DNA of 64,000 bases from Escherichia phage EP1: the sequence record OR892555.1; one strand, given 5' to 3'. Shown here one piece after another: positions 8,713-50,436 of the stretch. Every line of letters begins with the position of its first letter. The stretch's first letter is position 1. Both the position numbers and the translations under genes were made by a program. Under the pieces are notes generated by a model. It worked only from the letters and a program-made list of their open reading frames with translations. It was not told where the DNA came from and searched no databases.

Positions 8713-8713
8713 A

Positions 8714-13074: not shown

Positions 13075-13322
13075 GCAATAAAGAGCAAGAAGCTTTAGCA
13101 ATCTTCAAGAGCGAAGACAAATCAATAGCTTTTGTCTCAGAGGCTTGGTGCAGAGATTTGGGGTATGATTGGTATCTCTTCTTATGCGCTAAGAAAGATG
13201 TTAAACCAGTTGATGAAACCCGATTCAAAGAACTGTATAATATCTGCCAAGAGGGTTATGAAGAACATTACGAAGGTTCTTTGAATCTTGTAAATTCAAA
13301 AGCTTCAGACTTATTTTATTGA
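13072..13322 (+). CDS. hypothetical protein
   Basis: Start moved to MSNKEQ after GGAGA RBS. Confidence 0.35.
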
Positions 13323-13877: not shown

Positions 13878-14978
13878 ATGACAATTCTGTACAAACAAAA
13901 TAAAGATGGTTCTTTCAACGTCTGGTCATGTGTTGCTGTAGGTGATAAAGTCGTCACAACTTATGGTAAAGAAAATGGCAAGATGATGTTTGAAGAGTAC
14001 ACAGCAGAACCTAAGAACATCGGTAAGAAGAATGAGCGTAATGCTGAACAGCAAGCTCTCTTTGAAGTTGCTGCTAAGTACAAGAAGCAGGTTGACCGTA
14101 AAGGTTATGCTTATTCAAAATCTGAAGCAGAGAACACTGAAAAGGTTGGTGTACAACTCGCACAAGATGCTGCAAAGGTAAGCCATGCCAAGTATTTGAA
14201 GTTCCCTGCTGATGCTCAACCTAAGCTTGATGGTGTTCGTTGCCGCATATCAAGAGATGTTGACTCAGTGAACTTCACAGCTTATTCCCGTGAAAATACT
14301 GTGTACAACGTACCTGAAGAGTTGATTCCAGATTTACTCATGATGCTTAAACTCCATAAAGATGTTGATGATTTTGACGGTGAGATTTATGCTCATGGTT
14401 GGGACTTGGAAGATATTGTATCTATGATTAAGAATGCTGACAATCCAGACCGTCACCTGCTTAAATTCTACTGGTATGATATCTGTGATAAAACTAAAAC
14501 TTGGCCTGAGCGTCGTGGAATCATTGATAACTCACCAATTGTTGAACTCGGTGATGCTTGCAGAGTTGTGCCTGTTCAAACTATCCGTGTCAACTCTTGG
14601 GAAGAGTTCGACAAAGCCCATGATAATTGGGTTAAGCTGAAGTTTGAAGGGGCTATGTACCGTTCAATCTCTGAAGAATCTTTCTACGAGTGTAGTCACC
14701 GTTCATACTTCTTAATCAAGCATAAGAAGATGCACACTGAAGAGTTTAAAGTAACTGGTGTGAAGACTGATAAACGTGGTCATGGTAAGTTCGTTGTAGA
14801 AACTCTTCCTAACGTCTTTGTAGATGTTTCATGGAAAACTACCCATGATAAGAAACAGTATCTTGCTGAACATCCTGAAGAGTTTATCGGGAAGCCTTTG
14901 ACGGTTCAGTTCCAGAAGATGACTCGTAAGGGGTCTTTACAGTTCCCTGTTGGCCTCGTTATACGAGATTATGAATAA
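13878..14978 (+). CDS. ATP-dependent DNA ligase
   Basis: Adenylation motif I KLDGVRC; EGAMYRS and FLIKHKK resemble ligase motifs IV and V; 366 aa. Confidence 0.7.
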   Translation: MTILYKQNKDGSFNVWSCVAVGDKVVTTYGKENGKMMFEEYTAEPKNIGKKNERNAEQQALFEVAAKYKKQVDRKGYAYSKSEAENTEKVGVQLAQDAAKVSHAKYLKFPADAQPKLDGVRCRISRDVDSVNFTAYSRENTVYNVPEELIPDLLMMLKLHKDVDDFDGEIYAHGWDLEDIVSMIKNADNPDRHLLKFYWYDICDKTKTWPERRGIIDNSPIVELGDACRVVPVQTIRVNSWEEFDKAHDNWVKLKFEGAMYRSISEESFYECSHRSYFLIKHKKMHTEEFKVTGVKTDKRGHGKFVVETLPNVFVDVSWKTTHDKKQYLAEHPEEFIGKPLTVQFQKMTRKGSLQFPVGLVIRDYE

Positions 14979-19699: not shown

Positions 19700-22237
19700 T
19701 TACGCCGTTCTAACCCATGCCATCAATCTGATAAACAAGTTTACAACACTGAATGCTGAACCAGAACCTGTACCACCAGTGTCACCACTAACTGTGTGGG
19801 TGTGAGCACCAATACCAACCGTGTGAGCGTGGTTACCAGCAGAAGCAGCAGTACCAGAGATTGTGTGGGTGTGAGCACCACCTGCATCAGTGTAACCTGG
19901 CCCTGTACCAAGCTTACCACCACCACCACCAGAGTAGTGAGTAGAGTTCTGACCAATCCATGAGATAGCATGTTTGTGACTACCAGCAGATGCAGCAGAA
20001 CCACTTACAGAGTGGGTATGAGCACCAGTCGTGTTAGAGGTCTTAGTACCATAGTCAAAGCTTGACGTTGTAGCTGAGAAGCTGTGAGTATGTGAAGGAA
20101 GGTGTCCTACAGCTAATGTCACAGTATCTGCACCACCAACTGTCTTAACATCTGAACCATTCGCTGCACCGATTCTGACAGTTCTACCGACACCTTCATT
20201 TAGATACGTCCAAGTTAATCCCGGAAGGGTAGTATTAGGGTTCTGGTTAGTTGCAAACCATGTTACAATACCTACAGGGTAAACTTTCTTAAGGTCTGTA
20301 GAGTCTGTAACAGCATTTGCAATCTTCTGGTCAACTTCAGTTTTAGTATATGCACCAACATCTGATGCTGAAGGTTTTAACAAGCTTGTGTAAATAGACT
20401 GGACACTACCAGAAACCATGCTAGTTGGTGGTGTTACAGAACCTTCAGGTGTTGTATACATAGATACTGCGGCATTTGAAGTGCATCTCCAACTAAAGCT
20501 AATACTGTGTGCATAACCACCAGATTTAGCGTAGATATCATAACTATTGCTACCATTCGAAACATAACCAATATCAGTAAACAATGGACTAGTGTCAGTA
20601 CTATTCCAAAGAACTGCCGTGATACCAACAGGTGTAGAGTTGTTTCCAGTCCTTAAAATAATACTAGTAGGCGCGGCTTGTGCTGTTGAGCCAGCATTAT
20701 AACCAGCACCACCTGCAAACCTCATTTCTACAGTTGATGTACTCTGTGGCATAACTACGGTTGCCACCTTAACCCATAAACCATTAGTACCTGAGCTATT
20801 TGGACTAATAGACCCAATCATTTCATATCTTAAGTCTGATAAACTTTTTGTATAATATCTTGAATCAAAGTTTGCAAAGTCTGAAGGTTTCACCTGTCCA
20901 GTGATATTCACACTTTTATTGGCGACAATCTCATTAGCAAGCTGCAAAGAACTACCAAGTATGTGGTTTTGCAATGACAGAGTTGTTGAACCATCTGAGC
21001 CAACACCAATAAACCACCTGTTAGTAGTACCATCTGAGTCTCTTGAGATGATATAAGAGGCTTTACCTGCACTGCTTGGCATTAATACTAGACCCTGACC
21101 ATCATTCTTAATGGTCTGTACACCAGTAAAGGTGTTTGCAGTATTGTTCCTTGCAATTGTAGAAAGTGTTGCAGCAGGAATAAATCTGGCATCAATGTTA
21201 GACCAATCTGTAGGCTGAACCTGTCCAGTGATTGCAAGACTCTTGTTAACTCTGACCATGTTATCAAGTAATACATAGGTATCATTTGAGATGTTTGTCA
21301 ATACAACTGAGTTGCTACCATCTGCATAGTTACCTACAGCCCACTTCATAGAAGCATCTGTGTTCTGACCTTCAATGTAAAGTGCTTTACCACTTGTCAA
21401 GTTCTTCAGAGTTAATCTTGCACCATCACCAAGTAACGTTGTAGTACCTCTGAGGGTGTTGTTTCCAGTAATCGTGTTAGCTGCTGCCAACTGAACAAAT
21501 CTTTGGTCTGCTGCATCACGAGTATAGAATCTTGCATCAAAGTTTGCGAAGTCTGAAGGAACAACCTGTCCAGTAACTTGAAGACTTTTGTTAATACCTA
21601 CAGAACCAGTACCAAGAACAATATTAGTATTCTGTTTGGTGTTTGCAATAGTAACGTCAGAACCAGAACTCAAGTTACCAATTGTGAACCTTACAGCGTT
21701 TGCTGTATCACGACCTTCATAATACAATGCAGCCGCAGCAGTGTTCTTCAAAGTCAAACCAGCATTATCTGTCTGGAAAATCTGACTTGCTGTAAAGGTA
21801 TTTTGAGTTCCCTTGATAGCAAATCTTGCATCGTTCTCATCATTAGTTCTCATCCCAAGTTCATTGGGAGATGGCTTATTCAGAGTGTGATAAACAGTTG
21901 CACTTCTTGAAGCATCTGCAATAGTCAGTTTAAGACCATTTGCATTAAGCTTGAAAGTTTTTGCAGTGTCACCGAAGACAATTTCGGAGTTACCTGTTGG
22001 GTCAAGTAAATCTTTTCCCCCATAGGTAAGCTTTACAATTCCTAAATTACCTGTCATGGTTCCACCAACTAATTGCAGAAATCTTTCCAGTCTAAATGAT
22101 GCAAGGAAATCCGCATAAGTCATTCTACGGTCTTCATCACCTAGCATCTCAGTTCTTTTCTTAACTCTGACATGCAATAGGTCATCAGAACGAATCTCAC
22201 TAATCGAGTTTAATTCACTCAATTTAAATTCTGCCAT
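19700..22237 (-). CDS. tail fiber protein with tail-collar-like domain and His-rich C-terminal repeats
   Basis: Three internal repeats NKSL.ITGQV.PSDF.NFD.R.YT; tail-collar-like VYPVGIVTWFATN...LPGLTWTYL; C-terminal GAHTHS/GSHKHA/GAHTHT His boxes. Confidence 0.7.
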   Translation of the reverse strand: MAEFKLSELNSISEIRSDDLLHVRVKKRTEMLGDEDRRMTYADFLASFRLERFLQLVGGTMTGNLGIVKLTYGGKDLLDPTGNSEIVFGDTAKTFKLNANGLKLTIADASRSATVYHTLNKPSPNELGMRTNDENDARFAIKGTQNTFTASQIFQTDNAGLTLKNTAAAALYYEGRDTANAVRFTIGNLSSGSDVTIANTKQNTNIVLGTGSVGINKSLQVTGQVVPSDFANFDARFYTRDAADQRFVQLAAANTITGNNTLRGTTTLLGDGARLTLKNLTSGKALYIEGQNTDASMKWAVGNYADGSNSVVLTNISNDTYVLLDNMVRVNKSLAITGQVQPTDWSNIDARFIPAATLSTIARNNTANTFTGVQTIKNDGQGLVLMPSSAGKASYIISRDSDGTTNRWFIGVGSDGSTTLSLQNHILGSSLQLANEIVANKSVNITGQVKPSDFANFDSRYYTKSLSDLRYEMIGSISPNSSGTNGLWVKVATVVMPQSTSTVEMRFAGGAGYNAGSTAQAAPTSIILRTGNNSTPVGITAVLWNSTDTSPLFTDIGYVSNGSNSYDIYAKSGGYAHSISFSWRCTSNAAVSMYTTPEGSVTPPTSMVSGSVQSIYTSLLKPSASDVGAYTKTEVDQKIANAVTDSTDLKKVYPVGIVTWFATNQNPNTTLPGLTWTYLNEGVGRTVRIGAANGSDVKTVGGADTVTLAVGHLPSHTHSFSATTSSFDYGTKTSNTTGAHTHSVSGSAASAGSHKHAISWIGQNSTHYSGGGGGKLGTGPGYTDAGGAHTHTISGTAASAGNHAHTVGIGAHTHTVSGDTGGTGSGSAFSVVNLFIRLMAWVRTA

Positions 22238-42974: not shown

Positions 42975-43195
42975 TGTATTTCTCCAAAATAATAAGTGAA
43001 TGGCTCTCCTGAAAAAAGACGGTGCAGAGACCGTCAAGGAGAAACCACAATGTATGCCAGAGACATACTGTATAAGTCTTCTTATAAAGTATACATCTGT
43101 AAAAAAGCCCTGTCTAAAAATACTCTTCGGTAGCGAAAGGAAGAATACTCGTAGCAGGGCGTTATTATTTTATTTTGAGAGAGAGTAAAATAATT

Positions 43196-43271
43196 TGGAG
43201 CGTCGAAAGGGAGTCGAACCCTCATAATCCTGTTTTGCAGACAGGTACATAGCCATTTCTGTCATCGACGC
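43196..43271 (-). tRNA. tRNA-Cys (anticodon GCA)
   Basis: Acceptor halves 43200-43206/43265-43271 pair; T-arm AAGGG-AGTCGAA-CCCTC (reverse-complement view); anticodon loop CUGCAAA; CCA encoded. Confidence 0.7.
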
Positions 43272-43277
43272 ATTAAT

Positions 43278-43369
43278 TGGAGGAAGATACCAGACTTGAA
43301 CTGGTACGCCGATTTCTCGGTTACTGACAGTTTAGCAAACTGTCCCCTTACCTTTAGGGTTAATCTTCC
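43278..43369 (-). tRNA. tRNA-Ser (anticodon GCU), long variable arm
   Basis: 92 nt; acceptor GGAAGAT/ATCTTCC; anticodon stem ACAGT/ACTGT with loop UUGCUAA. Confidence 0.7.
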
Positions 43370-43371
43370 AA

Positions 43372-44103
43372 TTATTTATTCAAGGCATCCTTCATTTCTG
43401 GAGTTGCAATTGAATCAATCACGCCAGATTTACAGGAATCATCAAACCAGTCTGGTAAGATACCTGCAAGGAAACCATTAATATTTGTTTTCAAGTAATC
43501 AGCAATCAAAGCCGCTTCATCTGCAATCATCTGAGCCACTTCATTAGCATAGGCAGTAATCTTTGCCATACCATCATTAATCGCTGTAACAGCTTGTGTA
43601 GCGAGGTCAGAGATGGTTGCTAGTCCTTTATCAATTGCATCCTGTAAGTCGCTTAGAACGCTGTTTACGGCATCTATAGAGGTATTAATCAAATCCATAG
43701 CCTTGTTACCGTATTCAGTAGCAACTCCCATGATTCCACTAAACGGTGTACAACCAACTTGTTCACCTGCTGCTCCCATAACATTAGAGTAACCTTTAGC
43801 TACTTGCATACGTTGTGAAAACTCATCTACAGACTTCTGTCCATATTGAGTCAGTGTGTTAGTTGTCGTTGTAGTGCTTCCAAGGCTAGTTGAGAAGCTA
43901 CTTAACAAGGCTGTAGTCAAACCAGCAGCAATAAGTTTATCTTTTACTGTAGGGTCTGATACCGAGCTAATAGAGCTTACTAATGAAGTAGAAGCGGCAA
44001 CTGTACCACCAAGAACTGCTGCACCAGTAATAAGAGGGTTAGAGAACCCGTTACCGGATTTAAGGAGACTGAAAATCTCTTTACCTTGTCCTGTCATCTC
44101 TTT
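43372..44103 (-). CDS. Ser/Thr/Ala-rich protein embedded in the tRNA array
   Basis: ORF trimmed to MKEMTGQ so it does not overlap the adjacent tRNA; low-complexity S/T-rich centre. Confidence 0.4.
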   Translation of the reverse strand, partial: KEMTGQGKEIFSLLKSGNGFSNPLITGAAVLGGTVAASTSLVSSISSVSDPTVKDKLIAAGLTTALLSSFSTSLGSTTTTTNTLTQYGQKSVDEFSQRMQVAKGYSNVMGAAGEQVGCTPFSGIMGVATEYGNKAMDLINTSIDAVNSVLSDLQDAIDKGLATISDLATQAVTAINDGMAKITAYANEVAQMIADEAALIADYLKTNINGFLAGILPDWFDDSCKSGVIDSIATPEMKDALNK

Positions 44104-44122
44104 CATTATGCACCTATAAAAT

Positions 44123-44199
44123 TGGTAGCCCATCGGGATTTGAACCCTGTTCTCATGTTTTTCAGACACGCGCTTTAACCATATAAGCTAATTGAGCTA
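44123..44199 (-). tRNA. tRNA, tentative Phe (anticodon GAA), atypical T-stem and acceptor/D-arm linker
   Basis: T-loop ATTTGAA with 3-bp GGG/CCC stem; anticodon loop CUGAAAA; acceptor TAGCTCA/TGGGCTA pairs with one G-U. Confidence 0.45.
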
Positions 44200-44206
44200 T
44201 TAAAAT

Positions 44207-44283
44207 TGGGGTGACCTACGGGAATCGAACCCGTATAGACCATGTTCACAGCATGGGTCATTATCCATTTATGATAAGGCCAC
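44207..44283 (-). tRNA. tRNA-His (anticodon GUG)
   Basis: T-arm ACGGG-AATCGAA-CCCGT; anticodon stem CCATG/CATGG with loop CUGUGAA; D-stem TCAT/ATGA. Confidence 0.7.
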
Positions 44284-44314
44284 ATGTAAGGACTCTCGTA
44301 AGAACCCTTAGAGG

Positions 44315-44390
44315 TGGCAGCAGCGTAAGGATTTGAACCTTAATCTTTCAGCTTCAGAGGCTGGAGCATTGCCAGTTATGCTACACTGCT
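44315..44390 (-). tRNA. tRNA-Gln (anticodon CUG)
   Basis: T-arm TAAGG-ATTTGAA-CCTTA; anticodon loop CUCUGAA; D-stem GCAT/ATGC. Confidence 0.65.
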
Positions 44391-44397
44391 ATTAATT

Positions 44398-44468
44398 TGG
44401 TACTCCATATCGGATTCGAACCGATACATAACACAGATTTTAAGTCTGGCCTCTCTGCCAATTGGAGT
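44398..44468 (-). tRNA. tRNA-like gene, anticodon loop reads UAA (Leu-type) but D-arm appears truncated
   Basis: Perfect T-arm ATCGG-ATTCGAA-CCGAT and 6-bp acceptor; only about 10 nt available for the D-arm. Confidence 0.4.
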
Positions 44469-44478
44469 AATGGAGCAT

Positions 44479-44554
44479 TGGCGGGGGATGTTGGAATTGA
44501 ACCAACTTCTTCGATTTCAAAGACCGAGGTTTTAACCTTGTAAACTAATCCCCT
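44479..44554 (-). tRNA. tRNA-Gln (anticodon UUG)
   Basis: T-arm GTTGG-AATTGAA-CCAAC; anticodon loop CUUUGAA; D-stem GTTT/AAAC. Confidence 0.6.
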
Positions 44555-44562
44555 TTAAATCT

Positions 44563-45120
44563 TTACTTTCTTAGTGGATGAATAAAGAATGCCAACATAA
44601 TTCTTTCCCTTGAGAATGCTCTTTCTTCTGGGACAACACTTTTAAGTTTCCATCCAACATAAATTCTCCAGTAAAACTGTTTACCAAAGACTTTAATTGA
44701 TGGGATAAAAGCGAATAATCCCCAAGCATTCCTATTCCACATCAGGAGATAACCTGTCTGATTATCTTCAGGGTTAGAACTTACGTTGATATTACCTTTC
44801 CACTTAGTAACATCTTTTACATCTCTTCCTAATACATGGTAAGAGAAGTTATAAGCTTTGTTTCTCCAGAGCCACCCAACTCTCTGCATATAAACACCAA
44901 GCTTACCAATCTTTCTAATCTTAGCCCATCGCTCAACGTGACCTTTGTCACCGTCAATTGGGTTATCATAAGTTTCCATCCATCTGAATCCAAAAGGTAG
45001 ATGGCCTTTCTTCTCACTGTAGAATGGAACAACAAAAGGTGCTAAGATTACTGCTAAGATTGCTGCAAATGGCTCTAGCAAAGCTAGGAAAATCCATGAA
45101 GCATACTTCAAATATCTCAT
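44563..45120 (-). CDS. membrane protein embedded in the tRNA array
   Basis: ORF trimmed to MRYLKYAS to avoid tRNA overlap; N-terminal TM segment ASWIFLALLEPFAAILAVILAPFVV. Confidence 0.4.
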   Translation of the reverse strand: MRYLKYASWIFLALLEPFAAILAVILAPFVVPFYSEKKGHLPFGFRWMETYDNPIDGDKGHVERWAKIRKIGKLGVYMQRVGWLWRNKAYNFSYHVLGRDVKDVTKWKGNINVSSNPEDNQTGYLLMWNRNAWGLFAFIPSIKVFGKQFYWRIYVGWKLKSVVPEERAFSRERIMLAFFIHPLRK

Positions 45121-45140
45121 TTTAAATAGCCTCTTTAAAT

Positions 45141-45216
45141 TGGTGCAGAATAAGGGATTCGAACCCCTATTAACAGCTTCGTAGACTGTTGCTCTATCCA
45201 TTTGAACTAATCCTGC
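45141..45216 (-). tRNA. tRNA-Arg (anticodon ACG)
   Basis: T-arm AAGGG-ATTCGAA-CCCCT; anticodon loop CUACGAA. Confidence 0.6.
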
Positions 45217-45330
45217 TTCCCTACGAGAACACCATACAGTTTTTCACAAACTTTGTTTTTACGTCTGTTTAGGTATGACGCTCTAAACTTTTTTGCGATG
45301 GAGTTATTGCTCATAGTGCTCTCCTCAAAT

Positions 45331-45408
45331 TGGTGTTCCAAGACGGATTCGAACCGTCACTAATACAAGGTTTGAGCTTGCATCCTCTGCCAATTGGGAT
45401 ACTGGAAC
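45331..45408 (-). tRNA. tRNA with anticodon CAA (Leu-type) but short variable region
   Basis: Well-formed cloverleaf in reverse complement (acceptor GTTCCAG/TTGGAAC, D-loop AATTGGCAG, T-loop TTCGAAT); anticodon loop CUCAAAC; 78 nt. Confidence 0.55.
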
Positions 45409-45410
45409 AT

Positions 45411-45485
45411 TGGTACTCGCTGAAGGAATTGAACCTTCTTTACCAACTTGTAAGGATGGGGCTTTACCGTATAAACTAAGCGAGT
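45411..45485 (-). tRNA. tRNA-Val (anticodon UAC)
   Basis: Acceptor ACTCGCT/AGCGAGT perfect; T-arm GAAGG-AATTGAA-CCTTC; anticodon loop CUUACAA. Confidence 0.65.
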
Positions 45486-45490
45486 ATGAA

Positions 45491-45578
45491 AAGAGGTCTG
45501 AAGTTGTGCCGCTAACTCAACTCCGTGGAATTTGTTACGGTCTTCAGTTGACTCAAGCGGTCTTTCACTCGACCTCTG
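45491..45578. ncRNA. structured element with acceptor-like terminal stem but no T-loop (candidate small RNA or degenerate tRNA)
   Basis: AGAGGTC (45492-45498) pairs with GACCTCT (45571-45577); internal hairpin CTGAAG...CTTCAG; fills a tRNA-sized gap in the array. Confidence 0.3.
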
Positions 45579-45581
45579 AAA

Positions 45582-45658
45582 TGGTGCTGCTCACAGGACT
45601 CGAACCTGCATTTCCATCCTTACAAGGGATGTGTAATAGCCAATTATACGAAAGCAGC
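45582..45658 (-). tRNA. tRNA-Thr (anticodon UGU)
   Basis: T-arm ACAGG-ACTCGAA-CCTGC; anticodon stem CATCC/GGATG with loop CUUGUAA. Confidence 0.7.
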
Positions 45659-45664
45659 ATTGTT

Positions 45665-45739
45665 TGGAGCATCCAGAGGGAATCGAACCCTCAACCTCAG
45701 TTTGGAAGACTGTAATTTTCCCGTTTAAACTATGGATGC
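45665..45739 (-). tRNA. tRNA-Gly (anticodon UCC)
   Basis: Acceptor GCATCCA/TGGATGC perfect; T-arm GAGGG-AATCGAA-CCCTC; anticodon loop CUUCCAA. Confidence 0.65.
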
Positions 45740-45745
45740 ACTAAT

Positions 45746-45821
45746 TGGTGGAGAAGCAGGGAATTGAACCCTGTACTTAAGTTTGCAAAACTTATGTTTT
45801 AACCATGTAAACTACATCCCC
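45746..45821 (-). tRNA. tRNA-Ala (anticodon UGC)
   Basis: T-arm CAGGG-AATTGAA-CCCTG; anticodon stem TAAGT/ACTTA with loop UUUGCAA. Confidence 0.65.
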
Positions 45822-45827
45822 AATGTT

Positions 45828-45903
45828 TGGTACAGGTGGAGGGAATTGAACCCATCATCTTACTGATTAAGAGTCAGCCGCATAACCATTTTGCTACACC
45901 TGC
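45828..45903 (-). tRNA. tRNA-Lys (anticodon CUU), tentative
   Basis: T-loop AATTGAA with GGG/CCC stem; anticodon loop CUCUUAA; acceptor ACAGGTG/CACCTGC. Confidence 0.55.
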
Positions 45904-45910
45904 ATTAATT

Positions 45911-45988
45911 TGGTAGGAGACAAGGGATTCGAACCCTCAAACACCAACTTCTAAGGATGGTAGGTTTACCAATTACCGTCAATCTCCC
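45911..45988 (-). tRNA. tRNA with anticodon UAG (Leu-type) but short variable region, structure partly unresolved
   Basis: T-arm AAGGG-ATTCGAA-CCCTC; acceptor with two G-U pairs; anticodon loop CUUAGAA; D-loop AATTGGTAA. Confidence 0.45.
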
Positions 45989-46052
45989 ATTAAATCTTTG
46001 TAGAGAACTGCTAAGACGCCAAAGCAACAATGGTATCAAATGCCTTAACAAT

Positions 46053-46080
46053 TCTCTAAAAAGACCTAACTGGTCTTTGC
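46053..46080 (-). terminator. hairpin, possible minus-strand terminator inside the tRNA array (weak)
   Basis: AAAGACC-taact-GGTCTTT stem followed by short U-run on the minus strand. Confidence 0.3.
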
Positions 46081-46229
46081 ATAGTCTTGTTTAATCCGGT
46101 GACTATAACCTTTGGAGAGCTTGATATTATCTCTTCTCCGTGACACCTACTAGGTGCTTTGTTGTGCGTGTACGACAATACACGAGGGAAACCGAACGCT
46201 GTACCAGAGCGTGGGCTTAAATCTCATTA

Positions 46230-46319
46230 GGCGGTAGATAAAGGAGTCGAACCCTCACCGTATCACTACAATGGCAATTGTTTTCAAGACAATTTGGCTT
46301 CCATTAGCCGCTATCTACC
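46230..46319 (-). tRNA. tRNA-Ser (anticodon UGA), long variable arm
   Basis: Acceptor GGTAGAT/ATCTACC; anticodon stem ATTGT/ACAAT with loop CUUGAAA; about 87 nt. Confidence 0.65.
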
Positions 46320-46332
46320 CCTAATAAGACTG

Positions 46333-46737
46333 TTAAACCTCTAACAGTCCTGCATGAACTTTCCTATGACAGTTAGAACACAGTACAACACATTTTCTAA
46401 CTTCTCTCTTAATAGTCCCTCTAGAGTAAGTCTTTAAATTGCTAGGTTCAAAGTCTTTTTCATTTGGGTCTAAATGGTGGAAGTCTAATGCTACTGGTTC
46501 AGATTCACCACAAACTCTGCATTTGCAGATTCTTTTGTATCGGTTAAGAAACTCTCTGTTTCTTTTTCTGTCAGCTACCGCCCTAATTTTCCTTTTAGCT
46601 TTATAAGTTGGGTCTTCTTGATACTTCTTAGAAGAGTATTTGGATTTGCAATCTTTGCATACTGACTGGTATCCATTACCACGCTTATGAAAACAACTTA
46701 AAGGTTTTTCTTGTGAGCATTTTCTACAAAGTTTCAT
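46333..46737 (-). CDS. HNH homing endonuclease inserted in the tRNA array
   Basis: Cys-rich zinc-binding N-terminus; HNH core DFHHLDPNEK ... CSNCHRKVH. Confidence 0.65.
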   Translation of the reverse strand: MKLCRKCSQEKPLSCFHKRGNGYQSVCKDCKSKYSSKKYQEDPTYKAKRKIRAVADRKRNREFLNRYKRICKCRVCGESEPVALDFHHLDPNEKDFEPSNLKTYSRGTIKREVRKCVVLCSNCHRKVHAGLLEV

Positions 46738-46751
46738 ACAAGTACCTATTC

Positions 46752-46822
46752 TGGCAGGGGTGTAGAGATTCGAACTCTAATCAAGAATTTTGGAGACTCT
46801 ATTGCTGCCTTAGCTCACCCCT
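46752..46822 (-). tRNA. tRNA-Trp (anticodon CCA), tentative
   Basis: Acceptor AGGGGTG/CACCCCT perfect; T-arm TAGAG-ATTCGAA-CTCTA; anticodon loop CUCCAAA; short D-arm. Confidence 0.6.
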
Positions 46823-46993
46823 ATTAACACTATAATTCGAAGCTTACCGTATTGTCACAACACTGTCAAGCCTCTTCTCAGATTATTTACATGTTCTGGA
46901 AAACATGAGATACAGACCACCTCCTTATGAAGTTGACTCATCTGAATCAACACGGAGACCCGCTAAGGTCGTCTAAGTAATCTGCTAACTAAT

Positions 46994-47070
46994 TGGCACA
47001 CCCTACAGGGCTCGAACCTGTAACTCAGTGCTTAGAAGGCACTTGCTCTATCCAATTGAACTAAGGGTGC
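46994..47070 (-). tRNA. tRNA-Arg (anticodon UCU)
   Basis: T-arm ACAGG-GCTCGAA-CCTGT; anticodon stem AGTGC/GCACT with loop CUUCUAA. Confidence 0.7.
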
Positions 47071-47320
47071 ATTCTTATCTTTAAAGGCTCTCTTAGAAAA
47101 CCCTTAAAGATGCCCACCTTATTAATCATACCGTGGGCGAGTACGCCAAATTCTTTGATGAGGGGTTGGAAGACCTCACTGGTGTTTAGCCTATTAAGCT
47201 ACTGCCAGAAAAACATTATCGTTTGCATTTATTTTAGTTTGCAAAAATAGACGCTACGCTAACGAAAACTAAGGTTACTATAAAGTGGTCACATCTGAAT
47301 GTCAACAACTTTATCGAATT

Positions 47321-47396
47321 TGGTAGTGGTAGCAGGAATCGAACCTGCGATGTTCGGTTATCAGCCGAGTGTTATGACCGTCTTAACTATACCACC
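47321..47396 (-). tRNA. tRNA-Ile (anticodon GAU)
   Basis: T-arm GCAGG-AATCGAA-CCTGC; anticodon loop CUGAUAA. Confidence 0.6.
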
Positions 47397-47398
47397 AT

Positions 47399-47475
47399 TG
47401 GAGGTTCAGATGGGATTCGAACCCACATTCATAGGGCTTATGAAACCCTTGCATTACCTTATCTGCGACTGAACC
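47399..47475 (-). tRNA. tRNA-Met (anticodon CAU), G-C-rich anticodon stem
   Basis: Acceptor GGTTCAG/CTGAACC perfect; T-arm ATGGG-ATTCGAA-CCCAC; anticodon stem AGGGC/ACCCT with loop UUCAUAA. Confidence 0.65.
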
Positions 47476-47554
47476 ATAATAAGTTGCCCTTTGGAGAAGA
47501 ACTATTGAGTGGGTGTTTCCAGCCGCGCAGGTGTTCTTCAGTTAAGGGCGAATT
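47476..47554. ncRNA. structured element with acceptor-like terminal stem but no T-loop (candidate small RNA)
   Basis: TTGCCCT (about 47484-47490) pairs with AGGGCGA (about 47544-47550); shares a TTCAGTT motif with the element at 45491. Confidence 0.25.
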
Positions 47555-47630
47555 TGGTAGGAGTGGAGGGATTCGAACCCGTCGCCTGTCAGATTAAAAG
47601 TCTGCCGCATCACCATTCTGCTACACTCCC
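47555..47630 (-). tRNA. tRNA-Lys (anticodon UUU)
   Basis: T-loop ATTCGAA with GGG/CCC stem; anticodon stem TCAGA/TCTGC with loop CUUUUAA. Confidence 0.65.
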
Positions 47631-47775
47631 ATTAAATCATCTTTGCAGTAACCTACGCAAACCTTGCTAAAGGGTTTGTAGAGTCATTTCCTATTAAGCT
47701 AATCTAGAATCATGCTAAGGAAATTCATCGGCACTCATGGGACGACATTTAGCTCCATAAGCCACTGCAAAGAGG

Positions 47776-47907
47776 ATTACCAGACCGTTGTTTTATCTTA
47801 AGTGCTCCCATTACACCAACACGCCGTAACGTGTGAAGGAATCGAACCTTCGCCTTTTCTTTACCAGAGAAATAGATTGTTTAATACTTGCTGTAAACGG
47901 TCTTCTG
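47776..47907 (-). ncRNA. tRNA-like RNA lacking a canonical acceptor stem, enclosed by a long-range stem (candidate Y-RNA-like or pseudo-tRNA)
   Basis: Minus strand reads AGACCGTT...[anticodon-like arm TTTCT-CTGGTAA-AGAAA][T-arm GAAGG-TTCGATT-CCTTC][hairpin ACACG-TTACGG-CGTGT]...AACGGTCT; ends pair over 8 bp. Confidence 0.4.
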
Positions 47908-47919
47908 TAAATTTGTTGA

Positions 47920-47993
47920 GCCAGACCAAGTTTTAAATTATTCAAATTAATTGGCTTGAAATTTTTAAGTTGGCTTGCTGAATTTGGTCTTCT
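47920..47993 (-). repeat. hairpin spacer module, copy B1 (CAGAAGACCAA ... TTGGTCTGG)
   Basis: AGACCAA (47922-47928) complementary to TTGGTCT (47983-47989); conserved flanks shared with copies at 47779, 48388, 48544. Confidence 0.5.
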
Positions 47994-48055
47994 GCTCCTT
48001 TAAAGAATACTCGTAAGAACTCTTTAAGGGATGGGCTAAAAAGCCCTCTCAAATT

Positions 48056-48133
48056 TGGCGGTTACGAAGGGATTCGAACCCTCATCATCTCCCGTGACAG
48101 GGGAGTATTTTAACCAGATTAAACTACATAACC
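48056..48133 (-). tRNA. tRNA-Asp (anticodon GUC)
   Basis: T-arm AAGGG-ATTCGAA-CCCTC; anticodon stem CTCCC/GGGAG with loop CUGUCAC. Confidence 0.7.
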
Positions 48134-48139
48134 TTTGTT

Positions 48140-48227
48140 TGGTGCGCCGTGAAGGAGTCGAACCTACCGAGTCATAATGACAAGTGATTTACAGTCACCA
48201 CCGCTTCCATCTACGGGATAACGACGC
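48140..48227 (-). tRNA. tRNA-Tyr (anticodon GUA), long variable arm
   Basis: 88 nt; T-arm GAAGG-AGTCGAA-CCTAC; anticodon loop CUGUAAA. Confidence 0.65.
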
Positions 48228-48297
48228 ATTTTATTCTATTCAGGCTAAGGACTTGCACCTTACAAATCGGTGAGCATTACGCTTCTCTCCCAAATCT

Positions 48298-48374
48298 TGG
48301 CGGTGAGTTAGGGATTCGAACCCTATACCATTCGGTTAACAGCCGACCGCACATGCCTTATGTGCTTCCTCACC
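48298..48374 (-). tRNA. tRNA-Asn (anticodon GUU)
   Basis: T-arm TAGGG-ATTCGAA-CCCTA; anticodon loop CUGUUAA. Confidence 0.7.
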
Positions 48375-48387
48375 ATGTTTAGTATTG

Positions 48388-48449
48388 CCAGACCGTATCT
48401 TTTCATTTTTTCCTATAAAAATTTTGAGATTGCTGTAAACGGTCTTCTG
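48388..48449 (-). repeat. hairpin spacer module, copy A2 (CAGAAGACCGT ... ACGGTCTGG)
   Basis: AGACCGT (48390-48396) complementary to ACGGTCT (48439-48445); lies between tRNA-Asn and the CAU tRNA. Confidence 0.5.
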
Positions 48450-48455
48450 CAAATT

Positions 48456-48532
48456 TGGAGGCGGGTGTTGGAGTCGAACCAACCGTTACCATGCTAATGA
48501 GACATGTGAGACACCCTTTCTCTATACCCGCG
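48456..48532 (-). tRNA. tRNA with anticodon CAU (Met, fMet or Ile-lysidine type)
   Basis: T-arm GTTGG-AGTCGAA-CCAAC; D-stem GAGA/TCTC; anticodon loop CUCAUUA; position 1-72 mismatched. Confidence 0.6.
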
Positions 48533-48543
48533 ATTCTTAATGA

Positions 48544-48607
48544 CCAGACCAAGTTTTATTTTCTATAAGCGAAGAAAGTTTTTTAACTTGCTGAATTTGG
48601 TCTTCTG
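48544..48607 (-). repeat. hairpin spacer module, copy B2 (CAGAAGACCAA ... TTGGTCTGG)
   Basis: AGACCAA (48546-48552) complementary to TTGGTCT (48597-48603). Confidence 0.5.
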
Positions 48608-48614
48608 TCAAATT

Positions 48615-48689
48615 TGGAGTCGTAGACGGGATTCGAACCCGCGAGCAACTGATTGAAGGTCAGGTGGCTAACCATTTGCCTTCTACGAC
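48615..48689 (-). tRNA. tRNA-Glu (anticodon UUC), tentative (C at position 33)
   Basis: Acceptor GTCGTAG/CTACGAC perfect; T-arm ACGGG-ATTCGAA-CCCGC; anticodon loop CCUUCAA. Confidence 0.55.
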
Positions 48690-48696
48690 ATTAATT

Positions 48697-48773
48697 TGGT
48701 CTCCGTTGAGGGAGTTGAACCCTCGACCCCTTGCTCCCAAAGCAAGTGCTCTGCCAAACTGAGCTAAACGGAA
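48697..48773 (-). tRNA. tRNA-Pro (anticodon UGG)
   Basis: T-arm GAGGG-AGTTGAA-CCCTC; anticodon stem CTTGC/GCAAG with loop UUUGGGA. Confidence 0.7.
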
Positions 48774-48940
48774 ATAATTCTTTTCAAACTCTATGTAACC
48801 ACTTTAACATTATTTTTTAGTGGTTGTCAAGAACTTTTTTAAAATATTTTTCAGTATCTTAGAAAAACTCTCGATTTCGTTTTTATGTAGAACATATTAA
48901 AGGGTATCAAACAATTTGTCAATACCCTTTTTAAAACTTT

Positions 48941-50356
48941 TTACCAGATGTAACGGTCAATCATTACTGCTTTGAGCATTACGCTGATTGGGTCAAACTT
49001 CTCACCACCAAGCAGAGCCTTTAAAGTGGCTGGAGAGAAACCTGATACCATCGCTACTCCGTTATCATTTACGGATACTTCGCAGTGACCATTACGGTTT
49101 GCTAAGTACCAGAATACCAGTTGTGGCATCTCATATCCAGCTTTTTCATACTTACTACGAATTACTTCGAAGTTTGTACGACCATTTGCCCCGTCAACCT
49201 GATTAAACTCCATATCAGAGAAGATAATAAGCTTACTTGGCATTGCTGCCTGAGTCAAGTTATTTCTTACACCAATTTCAAGAATACGGTCAAATGCTGC
49301 TTGTAGGTTTGTAGAACCATACTCAACATGACTCATAATCTGACGATGACGATTCTGTAAAGTGCCACTCAGGGTGATAAAGTGAGGTCTGTCTGAGTAA
49401 ATCATTAACTCGTCTTTAAAACAACCTGTATTGCGTTCTGAGACGTATAACGCCAGAGACACACCAATATCAAGAGCGGTTACTGAACCAAATGTTTCCC
49501 AAGTCATAGAGCATGATACATCTGTCATACAAAGGATGTTTTCACCATCAGCCATCCAGTTTGGTAGTGCTTTCCACTGTTCATTAGCAACTTGTGCTTT
49601 ACCACGCTGAACAGATTTAAGAACATCATAAGGGTATACAGCACCAGCATTAATCTTCGTCTCGCCCTTAGATAGAGCTTCAACGTAAGCTGCATAACGT
49701 TCACCATCTTTCTTACTGAACAGTTTTTGATAACGTGCAGCAGCCAGTGAAGGAATCTTACTGTAGTCAATCTCGCCAAAGTTATTTGTAGAGATTTTCT
49801 GTTCAACGGTGTCAGATAAAGCTGACAGCAGTGTACGGTACTCTTTCTCACTCAAGTTTGCAAATTTACAGAAACGTTTTACAAACTGCTTGTGGCGTGG
49901 TTTTACTCGTGGTAACCACTTAGCTGCTAAACATGCTGTATCAGGGTCTAACAAAGCTTCTTCTAAATGCTTGAAAGCATCTGTCTCATAACGAGTACCT
50001 ACGAAGATTTTGAAGTCATCGAAACGACCTAATTCAGAAATCTTATCCATGATACGAAGAACTTGGAAAGAATCCAGAATGTTATCTTCGATTGCTTGTA
50101 AGAGGACAGTTCGGAAAGCTTTACGCTCACCCATACCTTCTCGTACATCTCGCATATGCAGTAAAATACGAACTGCTACATCAACATCCTCACGCAAAGC
50201 TTTGTAGAACAAGTCTGGGAGAATCTCTACATTGTTACGGCTTGAACCAGCAGCTTTGTAGAAGTCTACCAAGGCAGACATTGATGATGTATGGTTAACA
50301 GCACCATTTTCAGTTCGCCCTGCATTGAGGTGCGAATGCTTAAATAAATCGCTCAT
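48941..50356 (-). CDS. Ro60-like protein: helical TROVE-like N-terminal region plus C-terminal vWA domain with MIDAS motif
   Basis: C-terminal MTDVSCSMTWE (DxSxS) ... GSTNLQAAF ... LVFWYLANRNGHCEVSVNDNGVAMVSGFS parallels the Ro60 vWA domain; 471 aa; directly upstream of the tRNA array on the same strand. Confidence 0.6.
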   Translation of the reverse strand: MSDLFKHSHLNAGRTENGAVNHTSSMSALVDFYKAAGSSRNNVEILPDLFYKALREDVDVAVRILLHMRDVREGMGERKAFRTVLLQAIEDNILDSFQVLRIMDKISELGRFDDFKIFVGTRYETDAFKHLEEALLDPDTACLAAKWLPRVKPRHKQFVKRFCKFANLSEKEYRTLLSALSDTVEQKISTNNFGEIDYSKIPSLAAARYQKLFSKKDGERYAAYVEALSKGETKINAGAVYPYDVLKSVQRGKAQVANEQWKALPNWMADGENILCMTDVSCSMTWETFGSVTALDIGVSLALYVSERNTGCFKDELMIYSDRPHFITLSGTLQNRHRQIMSHVEYGSTNLQAAFDRILEIGVRNNLTQAAMPSKLIIFSDMEFNQVDGANGRTNFEVIRSKYEKAGYEMPQLVFWYLANRNGHCEVSVNDNGVAMVSGFSPATLKALLGGEKFDPISVMLKAVMIDRYIW

Positions 50357-50436
50357 ATTTTACTCTCTTCTCTCTTTTGTTGTTTGATGTGACAGACTTT
50401 AGAACATCTTCGTAGAGCCTGTCAACATCTTTTAAA

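What the first reader, a model, noticed from the sequence alone, without database searches (positions are those of the whole stretch)
48941..50356. Ro60-like (TROVE/vWA-type) protein encoded at the head of the phage tRNA array
The 471-aa product has a C-terminal vWA domain with an intact MIDAS motif (DVSCSM) and further segments that parallel the Ro60 vWA domain, preceded by a helical region of TROVE-like size. Ro60 orthologs are RNA-quality-control proteins that bind misfolded small RNAs and tRNA-like Y RNAs. Here the gene lies directly upstream, on the same strand, of about 27 tRNAs plus several tRNA-like elements, with no intrinsic terminator between them. That arrangement suggests a phage Ro60/Y-RNA-like module acting on tRNAs or tRNA-like RNAs.
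Basis: partly seen in the sequence, partly recalled or inferred. Interest (0 to 1): 0.85.

Follow-up and report, generated by a model that had tools for sequence, protein, structure and literature searches.

The report
Phage Ro60-like protein with Y-RNAs
A Felix O1-type coliphage encodes a structural look-alike of the RNA-binding Ro60 protein (its near-identical relative is already known to disarm a bacterial defence), and next to it, hidden between the phage tRNA genes, lie four previously unannotated small RNAs that look like its missing partner 'Y RNAs' and recur beside this gene in very different phages.

The parts
48941..50356 (-). Gene for the 471-aa Ro60-like protein (Pfam DUF2828 + DUF7788; PHROG 850); ortholog of Bas63 gp130
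   Evidence: ORF; Pfam and PHROG hits; AF2 model pLDDT 91.5, pTM 0.90; Ro60 is the top structural match; 89% identity with no gaps to Bas63 gp130
49562..50356 (-). N-terminal all-helical domain (about aa 1-265), structurally equivalent to the TROVE/HEAT-repeat ring of Ro60 but shorter
48944..49549 (-). C-terminal vWA domain (about aa 270-471) with a complete MIDAS: D279-x-S281-x-S283 (nt 49508-49522), T349, D381
   Evidence: PF25043 matches aa 275-455 at 4e-42; MIDAS residues invariant in 80 sequences; VWA_2 and vWA_Ro60 hits among family members; Ro60 is the best vWA match in PDB by profile search, though not significant (E 0.45)
48894..48930 (-). 12-bp hairpin directly after the stop codon, overlapping a promoter-like site (TTGACA-17-TAATAT)
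   Evidence: equivalent hairpin-with-TTGACA, with differing stem sequences, seen in L130, L131, L132 and KP2025 (read by eye, not formally counted)
48801..48830 (-). Promoter-like site (TTGACA-18-TAAAGT with TG) in front of the first tRNA
   Evidence: consensus match only
48541..48610 (-). E1, simple Y-like RNA: outer helix TGAC/GTCA, internal loop AGA/G, inner helix AGACCAA/TTGGTCT, then AUUCAGCAA; lies between tRNA-Glu and tRNA-Met
   Evidence: R1 score 44.4 bits; conserved in Bas63, EcSzw-2 and L130 with a diverged interior
48385..48452 (-). E2, simple Y-like RNA: TTGC/GCAA, AGACCGT/ACGGTCT, UUUACAGCAA; lies between tRNA-Met and tRNA-Asn
   Evidence: R1 score 53.7 bits; weak Rfam Dicty_Class_I_RNA hit of 24.8 bits at 48389-48444
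47918..47997 (-). E3, simple Y-like RNA: GAGC/GCTC, AGACCAA/TTGGTCT, AUUCAGCAA
47777..47910 (-). E4, YrlA-like RNA: terminal helices (TTAC/GTAA; AGACCGTT/AACGGTCT), UACAGCAA, anticodon-arm mimic (loop CUGGUAA), T arm GAAGG-UUCGAUU-CCUUC, closed acceptor-like hairpin ACACG/CGUGU, D-like arm UGGUGUAAUGGGAGCAC
   Evidence: Curated structure: 96.3% of cells paired versus about 42% in slid controls, 17 pairs with changes on both sides. Cross-lineage alignment: 94% paired, 28 of 31 pairs covary. Present in 247 phage records and almost never annotated.
43196..48773 (-). tRNA array (24 ARAGORN tRNAs plus tRNA-Glu at 48618-48689, a probable tRNA-Tyr at 48145-48225 and a tRNA-like hit at 46755-46822), in which E1-E4 are embedded
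   Evidence: collinear with the Bas63 array
46333..46737 (-). HNH homing endonuclease gene inserted in the array (absent at this position in Bas63)
   Evidence: phrog_2255 at 3.2e-45; gap in collinearity with Bas63. Relevant because Ppl is reported to be triggered by 3'-OH ends made by phage homing endonucleases (PMC12904381).
50437..50808 (-). DUF5681 gene, conserved upstream neighbour in Felix O1-like relatives (not in KP2025 or L134)
50396..50425 (-). Promoter-like site (TTGACA-18-TAAAGT) in front of the Ro-like gene
   Evidence: consensus match only

Best explanation
The gene encodes a divergent Ro60-type protein: a helical ring-like domain plus a vWA/MIDAS domain, in the DUF2828/DUF7788 family. 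I propose that it works as a ribonucleoprotein with phage-encoded Y-like RNAs, which in this window are E1-E4 in the first spacers of the tRNA array. SHOWN: (1) the Ro60 fold of the protein; (2) orthology to Bas63 gp130, whose deletion sensitises the phage to the Ppl defence and whose expression rescues T7 (published); (3) a conserved, covarying RNA family consisting of a terminal helix, then CAGCAA, with or without a permuted tRNA-like domain of YrlA layout; (4) that these RNAs lie next to the gene on the same strand in eight phage lineages, with or without tRNAs nearby, and are absent from the controls. INFERRED: the RNAs are transcribed from the array's own sigma70-type promoters as part of the tRNA precursor. 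They are released by the tRNA-processing enzymes, since they sit 3-10 nt from the neighbouring tRNA ends. The protein binds the terminal helix plus the single-stranded CAGCAA, as Ro60 binds the Y-RNA stem. The tRNA-like module of E4 tethers or decoys a host tRNA- or RNA-binding enzyme, as YrlA/Yrn1 tether PNPase to Rsr. Ro60 rings thread single-stranded 3' ends, phage phiLo Ro60 damps the 3'-5' exonuclease PNPase, and Ppl is described as a 3'-5' ssDNA exonuclease sensing 3'-OH ends. The most economical mechanism is therefore that the particle, or the protein alone, shields 3' ends from host 3'-5' exonucleolytic defence or blocks those enzymes.
Against: No binding or expression data exist for E1-E4. 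Bas63 gp130 expressed alone from a plasmid or from the T7 genome, presumably without these RNAs, already restores T7 plaquing on ppl, so the anti-Ppl activity may not need the phage RNAs. The Ro-binding motif of known Y RNAs (GNCGAAN0-1G) is absent from the terminal region. The window's E4 is not hit by Rfam YrlA at all. No TROVE sequence-model hit. Ring closure and cavity residues could not be inspected. In KVP40 the gene is about 3.4 kb from the array, and no element lies within 1.5 kb of it.
Confidence: 0.72

Rival explanations
1. Protein-only anti-defence inhibitor. The vWA/MIDAS domain, or the ring, binds and blocks Ppl (or another host protein) directly. The neighbouring RNAs are irrelevant to that function, or serve a second, separate role.
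For: gp130 alone rescues T7 on ppl, from a plasmid or inserted into T7. vWA/MIDAS domains are classical protein-protein interaction modules (established knowledge), and the MIDAS is invariant.
Against: This does not explain why a specific covarying RNA family stays glued to the gene across phages of Proteobacteria, Campylobacterota, Firmicutes and Actinobacteria. Host RNAs could substitute in the T7 experiment. The two explanations are not exclusive.
Confidence: 0.3
2. tRNA quality-control or repair scaffold. The RNP surveys or protects the phage's own tRNAs, or presents damaged tRNAs to a ligase, to counter host anticodon nucleases. This would parallel the bacterial rsr-yrlBA-rtcBA operon.
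For: The gene is recurrently adjacent to tRNA arrays. An RtcB-type 'tRNA-splicing ligase' lies 1.3 kb downstream in Listeria phage LMTA-57. E4-type RNAs keep an anticodon-loop mimic CU-NN-U-AA. Iyer et al. describe TROVE proteins as RNA-repair platforms with a tRNA-like partner (PMC7824862).
Against: The one phenotype on record is against Ppl, which a review describes as a DNA exonuclease. LilDestine has the module but no tRNAs in 21 kb. No RNA ligase was seen next to the gene in the window or in the Felix O1-like relatives.
Confidence: 0.25
3. E1-E4 are only punctuation of the tRNA operon (processing hairpins, attenuators or promoter-associated stem-loops, plus a decayed tRNA pseudogene) and have nothing to do with the protein.
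For: They sit exactly in inter-tRNA spacers. Part of E4 scores as a weak tRNA (30.6 bits). Other spacers in the array are also strongly structured.
Against: The same grammar flanks the gene where there are no tRNAs (LilDestine) and is absent from the T5 array. The single-stranded CAGCAA and the T arm / closed acceptor / D arm order are conserved with full covariation across phyla. A tRNA pseudogene would not keep compensatory changes in a closed acceptor hairpin.
Confidence: 0.07
4. A generic vWA protein unrelated to Ro60, whose resemblance is limited to the vWA domain.
For: No PF05731 hit. PDB sequence-profile hits to Ro60 are not significant and cover only the MIDAS region.
Confidence: 0.02

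Closest known systems
Bas63 (Escherichia phage JohannRWettstein) gp130, the PhageMaP anti-Ppl counter-defence protein
   Same: Ortholog: 471 aa, 89% identity, no gaps, same position directly 5' of tRNA-Pro and a collinear array. Already described as structurally Ro60-like, with the suggestion that some 'tRNAs' may be Y RNAs.
   Different: The preprint named no RNA. The candidates found here are not among the annotated tRNAs but lie in the spacers. In Bas63, E3 (20688-20767) and E4 (20775-20912) are overlapped by a probably spurious opposite-strand ORF, bas63_0137. This window additionally has an HNH endonuclease in the array.
Bacterial Ro60 (Rsr) with YrlA/YrlB Y RNAs (Salmonella rsr-yrlBA-rtcBA; Deinococcus Rsr-Yrn1-PNPase)
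   Same: Ring-plus-vWA protein. Partner RNAs are encoded within a few kb on the same strand. There is one tRNA-like RNA (T arm, closed acceptor hairpin, D arm inside a terminal stem) and shorter RNAs lacking that domain.
   Different: A different Pfam family, with no TROVE sequence hit. The helical domain is about 100 aa shorter (from my knowledge of Ro60 domain sizes; not measured here). The RNA motif is CAGCAA rather than GNCGAAN0-1G. E4-type RNAs keep an anticodon-arm mimic, and the ends exit between the D and anticodon arms rather than through the anticodon stem. Scores are below the Rfam YrlA gathering score (0-40 bits versus 69).
Thermus phage phiLo phiRo60 with Yrl1/Yrl2 (PDB 9KOP, 9L5Y)
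   Different: phiRo60 is a TROVE-annotated protein with CGAA-motif RNAs upstream of its gene, and only 15% identical in the structural alignment. No tRNA-array context was reported.
Dictyostelid Class I RNAs (Rfam RF01414)
   Same: Same RNA design as the simple elements: about 60 nt, a covarying ~6-bp helix joining the 5' and 3' ends, a conserved single-stranded UUACAGCAA immediately after the 5' strand, a 3' end ...CUG, a variable interior, and genes in clusters. It is the only non-tRNA, non-YrlA Rfam family that recurrently touches these elements, at 14-25 bits.
   Different: All scores are below the gathering score of 41.5. There is no hit on the Campylobacter elements. The hosts are eukaryotic, the only named binding protein is an RRM protein (Rnp1A), and I could not check whether dictyostelids encode a DUF2828 protein. 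Convergence or chance is quite possible.

Membership tests
Ro60 / TROVE proteins | TROVE (HEAT-repeat ring) domain recognisable by sequence (Pfam PF05731) | tested here: not met
   No PF05731 hit for the window protein at E<=1, nor for any of 80 family members at E<=10. A profile-profile test against a TROVE alignment could not be run, because only Ro60 fragments were retrievable.
Ro60 / TROVE proteins | Ro60 three-dimensional architecture: helical repeat domain followed by a vWA domain | tested here: met
Ro60 / TROVE proteins | vWA domain with a MIDAS motif (DxSxS...T...D) | tested here: met
   D279, S281, S283, T349 and D381 are invariant in 80 sequences. PF25045 vWA_Ro60 is hit by 14 of 80 members and VWA_2 by 43 of 80.
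Ro60 / TROVE proteins | Closed ring with a central cavity that accepts single-stranded 3' ends | not testable with these tools
Only alignment lengths and scores are returned.
Ro60 / TROVE proteins | Partner Y RNA encoded nearby on the same strand | tested here: met
   E1-E4 lie 330-1160 nt 3' of the gene. Equivalent RNAs lie beside the gene in 8 of 8 lineages. Physical association was not tested.
Pfam DUF2828 + DUF7788 / PHROG 850 | Hits above the curated cut-offs to both Pfam models and full-length coverage of the PHROG | tested here: met
   PF25043 at 144.4 bits (cut-off 27.1); PF11443 at 100.6 bits (cut-off 29). phrog_850 at 1.8e-177, covering 1-471 of the protein and 1-476 of the profile. 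8944 cluster representatives at E<=1e-3.
YrlA Y RNAs (Rfam RF02553), for E4 and its relatives | Score at or above the gathering threshold (69 bits) | tested here: not met
   Window E4: no hit at E<=10. KP2025: 40.1 and 34.3 bits. LilDestine: 21.7 bits. No YrlA hit at gathering score in L002-L008.
YrlA Y RNAs (Rfam RF02553), for E4 and its relatives | Terminal stem enclosing a tRNA-like domain in the order T arm, closed acceptor-like hairpin, D arm | tested here: met
   this is the same order as the Rfam YrlA consensus structure line.
YrlA Y RNAs (Rfam RF02553), for E4 and its relatives | GNCGAAN0-1G motif near the 5' end (proposed Ro-binding site) | tested here: not met
   The only match in the array (GGCGAAGG at 47854) abuts the T stem and is not in the terminal region. 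The conserved motif is instead UACAGCAA after the 5' strand of the helix.
tRNA (for 47827-47890, counted as a tRNA by Rfam) | Cloverleaf with paired acceptor stem and D arm | tested here: not met
   Rfam gives 30.6 bits, just above gathering score, but with three non-canonical acceptor pairs and the D arm missing. ARAGORN does not call it. The segment is the anticodon-like hairpin plus T arm of E4.
Dictyostelid Class I RNA (Rfam RF01414), for the simple elements | Score at or above the gathering threshold (41.5 bits) | tested here: not met
   24.8 (window E2), 25.0 and 22.6 (KP2025), 18.9 and 14.3 (LilDestine), 23.1 and 19.6 (Listeria) bits; none in Campylobacter.

The most novel reading that the evidence does not exclude
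The 'terminal helix + UACAGCAA' grammar is the recognition code of DUF2828-type Ro proteins wherever they occur. On this reading, the dictyostelid Class I RNAs are the eukaryotic Y RNAs of a DUF2828-family protein. Those RNAs are abundant and developmentally regulated, have no known function, and are believed unique to social amoebae. This would make the phage RNAs and the amoebal RNAs one cross-domain RNP family.
Probability: 0.12. Interest if true: 0.9.

Novelty: new variant of a known kind. Interest (0 to 1): 0.68.

Why it matters
The protein part is already known: the same Ro60-like call and the same tRNA-adjacency argument have been made for Bas63 gp130, which has an anti-Ppl phenotype. 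What the published work lacks is the RNA partner. If E1-E4 and their relatives are that partner, then a very large phage protein family gains a defined RNP composition and a sequence/structure code that can be mutated. The family spans 709 of 50,697 phage records and about 8,900 clusters at 50% identity, in phages of Proteobacteria, Campylobacterota, Firmicutes and Actinobacteria. That makes three open questions directly testable in a tractable coliphage: what prokaryotic and phage Ro60-Y RNPs actually do, whether a tRNA mimic is used as tether or decoy in counter-defence, and how Ppl is neutralised. It would also correct the annotation of several hundred phage genomes, where E4 is unannotated, called tRNA-Thr, or covered by spurious ORFs.

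Tried and rejected
1. Single-sequence and profile searches of PDB sequences gave only insignificant Ro60 hits at the MIDAS region (E 0.45 and 1.0).
2. NCBIfam gave nothing.
3. Literature searches for DUF2828 and PF11443 found nothing functional.
4. Rfam scans of the array found no YrlA or Y_RNA at meaningful scores. The 21.5-bit YrlA hit at 44137-44261 simply spans two adjacent tRNAs.
5. The GNCGAAN0-1G and CGAA motifs used by others to find Y RNAs did not mark the terminal regions here.
6. The pattern scan of viral contigs with CAGAAGACC...GGTCTGG returned mostly chance matches and had to be filtered by BLAST.
7. My first strict regular expression missed the divergent copies. Reading the spacers directly revealed them.
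8. RNAalifold's pairing of the invariant UACAGCA with UGGUGUA in E4 was rejected. Both segments are invariant in that set, and E1-E3 keep the motif without the partner.
9. A TROVE alignment for profile-profile comparison could not be built, because the protein database returned only Ro60 fragments.
11. The supplementary phage list of Chen et al. 2014 is not held.
12. Two counts I entered by hand were wrong and are corrected.
Full report
**1. Observation.** The ORF exists exactly as described: 48941-50356, minus strand, ATG start, 471 aa. ARAGORN finds 24 tRNA genes, all on the minus strand, between 43196 and 48773. DVSCSM sits at residues 279-284. In an 80-sequence family alignment D279, S281, S283, T349 and D381 are invariant, which is a complete MIDAS. 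One sub-claim needs qualifying. A 12-bp hairpin (48930-48899) follows the stop codon directly and overlaps a promoter-like TTGACA-17-TAATAT, and a second promoter-like site (48830-48801) precedes tRNA-Pro. A comparable hairpin containing TTGACA follows the stop codon in relatives at 47-63% protein identity. The array therefore probably has its own promoters.

**2. Source.** The window comes from a Felix O1-like (Ounavirinae) coliphage. The best match is Escherichia phage EcSzw-2, at 98.5% protein identity.

**3. The protein.** Pfam places it in DUF7788 (aa 275-455, E 4e-42) and DUF2828 (E 1.2e-28), not in TROVE. PHROG 850, annotated "RNA-binding protein", covers it end to end.
- The family is large. 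It occurs in 709 of 50,697 phage records, from phages of Escherichia, Salmonella, Vibrio, Aeromonas, Campylobacter, Listeria, Staphylococcus, Enterococcus, Bacillus and Mycobacterium. It has 8,944 cluster representatives at 50% identity.
- AlphaFold2 on the alignment gives a confident model: pLDDT 91.5, pTM 0.90. It is all-helical to about residue 263 and then an alpha/beta domain.
- Foldseek against the PDB returns eleven Ro60/TROVE chains as the top eleven hits, all aligned over full length (E 5.5e-9 to 1e-6, TM up to 0.66). vWA-only proteins follow from E 1.4e-3.
- At the sequence level the link is weak. No member hits PF05731 even at E<=10, 14 of 80 hit the Ro60-specific vWA model PF25045 (best E 1.7e-4), and 43 of 80 hit VWA_2.
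- The protein is therefore a Ro60-fold protein of a separate sequence family.

**4. What was already known.** The PhageMaP preprint (10.1101/2024.10.10.617714) studied Bas63, a Felix O1-like phage.
[quoted passage not shown] - It shows that deleting gene 130 cripples plaque formation on a host carrying the ppl defence, that complementation restores it, and that gp130 transferred to T7 or supplied from a plasmid rescues T7 on ppl.
- Bas63 gene 130 (MZ501086, 80319-81734) is 471 aa, 89% identical to the window protein without gaps, in the same position before a collinear array.
- Mycobacteriophage records already call family members "Ro-like RNA binding protein".
- A 2026 review describes Ppl as a single-gene 3'-5' ssDNA exonuclease, activated by nucleotide depletion plus 3'-OH ends made by phage homing endonucleases (PMC12904381). 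The window carries an HNH endonuclease inside the array (46333-46737).

**5. Synteny.** The gene lies beside tRNA genes on the same strand in most lineages:
- the window (gene 5' of the array);
- Klebsiella phage KP2025 (gene inside the array);
- Campylobacter F365 (tRNA-Met 250 nt upstream);
- Listeria LMTA-57 (14 tRNAs upstream, and an RtcB-type ligase 1.3 kb downstream);
- Bacillus MrDarsey (20 tRNAs upstream);
- a Staphylococcus phage (three tRNAs 1.5 kb downstream);
- more loosely, KVP40 (array about 3.4 kb upstream).

Mycobacteriophage LilDestine has no tRNA in 21 kb around the gene.

**6. The new result: partner-like RNAs.** Reading the spacers showed a repeated element on the gene strand. 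Four copies exist in the window: E1 48610-48541, E2 48452-48385, E3 47997-47918 and E4 47910-47777.
- Each has an outer 4-bp helix that differs in every copy yet stays complementary: TGAC/GTCA, TTGC/GCAA, GAGC/GCTC, TTAC/GTAA.
- Each has an internal loop (AGA opposite G) and an inner helix (AGACCAA/TTGGTCT or AGACCGT/ACGGTCT).
- Directly after the 5' strand comes a conserved single-stranded (U)UACAGCAA or AUUCAGCAA.
- In relatives at 55-63% protein identity the inner helix is replaced wholesale (AGAATC/GATTCT, AGGCTG/CAGCCT, AGACTCTG/CAGAGTCT, AGTGTC/GACACT) while the motif stays.
- A descriptor for this design finds nothing in 2.04 Mb of unrelated viral DNA (both strands). It finds 3-4 copies in every Felix O1-like array, always on the gene strand.

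**7. E4 is a YrlA-type RNA.** Inside its terminal helices E4 carries, in order:
- a 4-bp hairpin with a 7-nt loop;
- a T arm (GAAGG-UUCGAUU-CCUUC);
- a closed acceptor-like hairpin;
- a D-like arm (UGGUGUAAUGGGAGCAC).

Rfam calls the middle of it a marginal tRNA (30.6 bits) that lacks a D arm and has a mismatched acceptor stem. Evidence for the structure:
- On nine E4-type sequences a curated six-helix structure is 96.3% paired, against about 42% when partners are slid by 1-3 columns. Seventeen pairs have changes on both sides, against 1-5 in the slid controls, and 0 of 500 shuffles reach the observed values.
- A covariance model built from these Felix O1-like sequences alone finds full-length matches it was not trained on:
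  - L136, 98.3 bits.
  - L134, 71.1 bits, about 430 nt after the gene.
  - KP2025, 67.2 and 48.7 bits, in tandem in the gap after the gene.
  - LilDestine, 64.8 bits (E about 1e-11), in the 370-nt unannotated gap after its "Ro-like" gene.
  - Bacillus MrDarsey, 50.7 bits.
  - KVP40, 36.4 bits.
- Unrelated loci stay at or below 25 bits, and those hits are partial.
- In the cross-lineage alignment of 29 matches, 94% of cells pair (40-44% slid). 28 of 31 pairs have changes on both sides, and all six helices covary, including the D stem (GUG/CAC, GCU/AGC, GUU/AAC, GCUC/GAGC). That alignment is fitted to the model, which favours the structure.
- Rfam's own YrlA model gives sub-threshold hits on the same RNAs: 40.1 and 34.3 bits in KP2025 and 21.7 in LilDestine, against a gathering score of 69. 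Its consensus has the same order, terminal stems enclosing a T arm, a closed acceptor hairpin and a D arm.

E4-type RNAs are thus divergent YrlA-class tRNA mimics. They differ from YrlA in two ways. They keep an anticodon-arm mimic, whose loop reads CU-NN-U-AA in about nine members (U33, U36, A37, A38). They also carry CAGCAA instead of GNCGAAN0-1G.

**8. The association is with the gene, not with tRNA arrays.**
- A non-circular test asked, for every CAGCAA, whether a 7-bp helix has its 5' strand ending 1-4 nt before the motif. The background is 120 of 891 sites (13.5%).
- Beside the gene the answer is yes for 3 of 3 sites in LilDestine, 2 of 2 in Campylobacter (between tRNA-Met and the gene), 3 of 3 in Listeria (in the 400-nt gap before the gene) and 3 of 3 in the 600-nt gap before the Bacillus gene. 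KP2025 has five after the gene.
- The Staphylococcus phage has three just after its gene, with a longer linker and the variants CAGCAA, CAGCUAA and CAGCGAA. I read these by eye, and they fail the strict test.
- Counting strict elements only, 23 lie within 1.5 kb of the gene in eight lineages against 1.4 expected (P = 3e-20).
- LilDestine shows the complete module without tRNAs: gene, simple RNA, YrlA-like RNA, simple RNA, intrinsic terminator.
- Conversely, phage T5 has 25 tRNAs and eight annotated stable RNAs, and no Ro-like gene in the 40-kb segment searched. It gives no full-length model match, and anchored elements occur at background frequency, with none in the array.
- E4 itself is present in 247 phage records. 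It is annotated as nothing in almost all of them, once as tRNA-Thr and a few times as a hypothetical protein.
- All 95 mycobacteriophage carriers have 68-78 kb genomes. To my knowledge canonical TROVE Ro60 and YrlA were described in the ~155 kb phages such as ET08, so I judge these RNAs distinct from the published phage YrlAs. I could not check this against the published list.

**9. Mechanism.**
- Shown: the fold, the orthology to an anti-Ppl protein, the RNA family and its linkage to the gene.
- Inferred, first step: the RNAs are made with the tRNA precursor and released by tRNA processing, because E1 and E2 lie 3-10 nt from the flanking tRNA ends.
- Inferred, second step: the protein binds the helix plus CAGCAA.
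- Inferred, third step: the tRNA mimic tethers or decoys a host factor.
- Three facts point one way. Ro60 threads single-stranded 3' ends (established knowledge from the Ro60 structures). phiLo Ro60 attenuates PNPase (PMC12135203). Ppl attacks 3'-OH ends.
- The likeliest action is therefore protection from, or blockade of, 3'-5' exonucleolytic defence.
- The main caveat is that gp130 alone rescues T7 on ppl. The RNAs may be dispensable for that activity, may be replaced by host RNAs, or may serve another function such as countering tRNA-directed nucleases.

**10. A side observation.** The only Rfam family besides tRNA and YrlA that repeatedly touches the simple elements is the dictyostelid Class I RNA, at 14-25 bits against a gathering score of 41.5. 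Those RNAs share the design: a covarying terminal helix, UUACAGCAA right after the 5' strand, a 3' CUG and a variable interior. They have no known function (PMC7919456). The model does not hit the Campylobacter elements, and I could not test whether dictyostelids encode DUF2828 proteins. This remains a low-probability lead.

**11. Verdict.**
- The follow-up adds a previously undescribed class of Y-like RNAs that accompanies this protein family across phages.
- Novelty: new variant of a known kind (a Ro60-Y RNA module).
- Interest: 0.68.

Noticed in passing
L137 (phage T5, NC_005859 20000-60000): 10285-10645, 11809-11980, 12839-13084, 13878-13950, 20849-21567: The T5 record annotates eight 'stable RNAs with unknown functions' inside its tRNA region, three of them called tRNA-like (RNA1, RNA2, RNA3). 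They match neither the E4 model nor the stem-CAGCAA grammar, so they are a different and still unexplained class of array-embedded RNAs.
   Followed up: partly
window 48389-48444 (E2); L002 11551-11604 and 11635-11688; L004 11511-11557 and 11644-11705; L006 7623-7678 and 7712-7767: The Rfam model for Dictyostelium Class I RNAs repeatedly gives sub-threshold hits (14-25 bits) on the simple Y-like elements. The cause is a shared design: a terminal helix, UUACAGCAA, and a 3' CUG. It does not hit the Campylobacter copies.
   Followed up: partly
L006 (Listeria phage LMTA-57) 10808-12019: An RtcB-type 'tRNA-splicing ligase' lies 1.3 kb downstream of the Ro-like gene on the same strand. This recalls the Salmonella rsr-yrlBA-rtcBA RNA-repair operon. 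It was not seen next to the gene in the Felix O1-like loci.
   Followed up: no
L006 3941-4039: A drum RNA (Rfam RF02958, 50.2 bits, above its gathering score of 43) sits inside the Listeria phage tRNA array.
   Followed up: no
window 47194-47379 (-): A sub-threshold Rfam hit to permuted tmRNA (38.7 bits versus 47; E 4e-5 in a 9-kb search) runs from the 3' part of tRNA-Ile into the strongly structured 250-nt gap 47320-47071 (MFE z -3.9), which also holds a consensus-grade promoter (47305-47277).
   Followed up: no
window 47476-47554, 45486-45581, 43038-43195 (-): Three other spacers fold much better than shuffled sequence (z -4.9, -3.9, -5.9) but carry no stem-CAGCAA signature. They may be further structured RNAs or processing signals.
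   Followed up: no
window 48618-48689 (-) and 48145-48225 (-): ARAGORN missed a tRNA (Rfam 53.7 bits) that corresponds to the annotated tRNA-Glu of Bas63 and appears to have C rather than U at position 33. A weak type-II tRNA-like hit (22.8 bits) corresponds to the Bas63 tRNA-Tyr.
   Followed up: partly
L009 (Bas63) 20749-20901 and 20913-21023; several other Felix O1-like records: The small opposite-strand ORF bas63_0137 overlaps E3 and E4, and bas63_0138 lies immediately next to E4. Both are probably spurious. Gene-essentiality screens that target such ORFs would in fact be hitting the RNA genes.
   Followed up: no
L001 (EcSzw-2) 8661-10077: In the closest relative (a record marked UNVERIFIED) the ortholog is annotated as two CDS (42 and 423 aa), which suggests a frameshift or a sequencing error there. 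The window copy is intact.
   Followed up: no
L002 5518-7236; L004 18961-21305; L134 5017-7556: NAD-salvage genes (nicotinamide/nicotinate phosphoribosyltransferase, PRPP-related enzymes) lie within a few kb of the Ro-like gene in three unrelated lineages. This could be coincidental clustering of accessory genes.
   Followed up: no
A3 alignment, helix 3 (e.g. window about 47864-47878): The small hairpin of E4-type RNAs has a 7-nt loop CU-NN-U-AA in about nine members, with anticodon-like triplets GGU, GCU, UCU, CAU, UGU and GUU. This is the loop signature of ANN-decoding tRNAs. From my own knowledge, U36-A37 is the determinant for t6A modification, so the hairpin may mimic a substrate of tRNA-modifying or tRNA-cleaving enzymes.
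   Followed up: partly
window 43196-48773 (-): The tRNA genes whose sequence I read encode their 3' CCA, and several are followed by AAUUU (window 48380-49000 and 47540-48070; relatives L130-L132). This may be a shared processing signal. I did not check every tRNA in the array.
   Followed up: no
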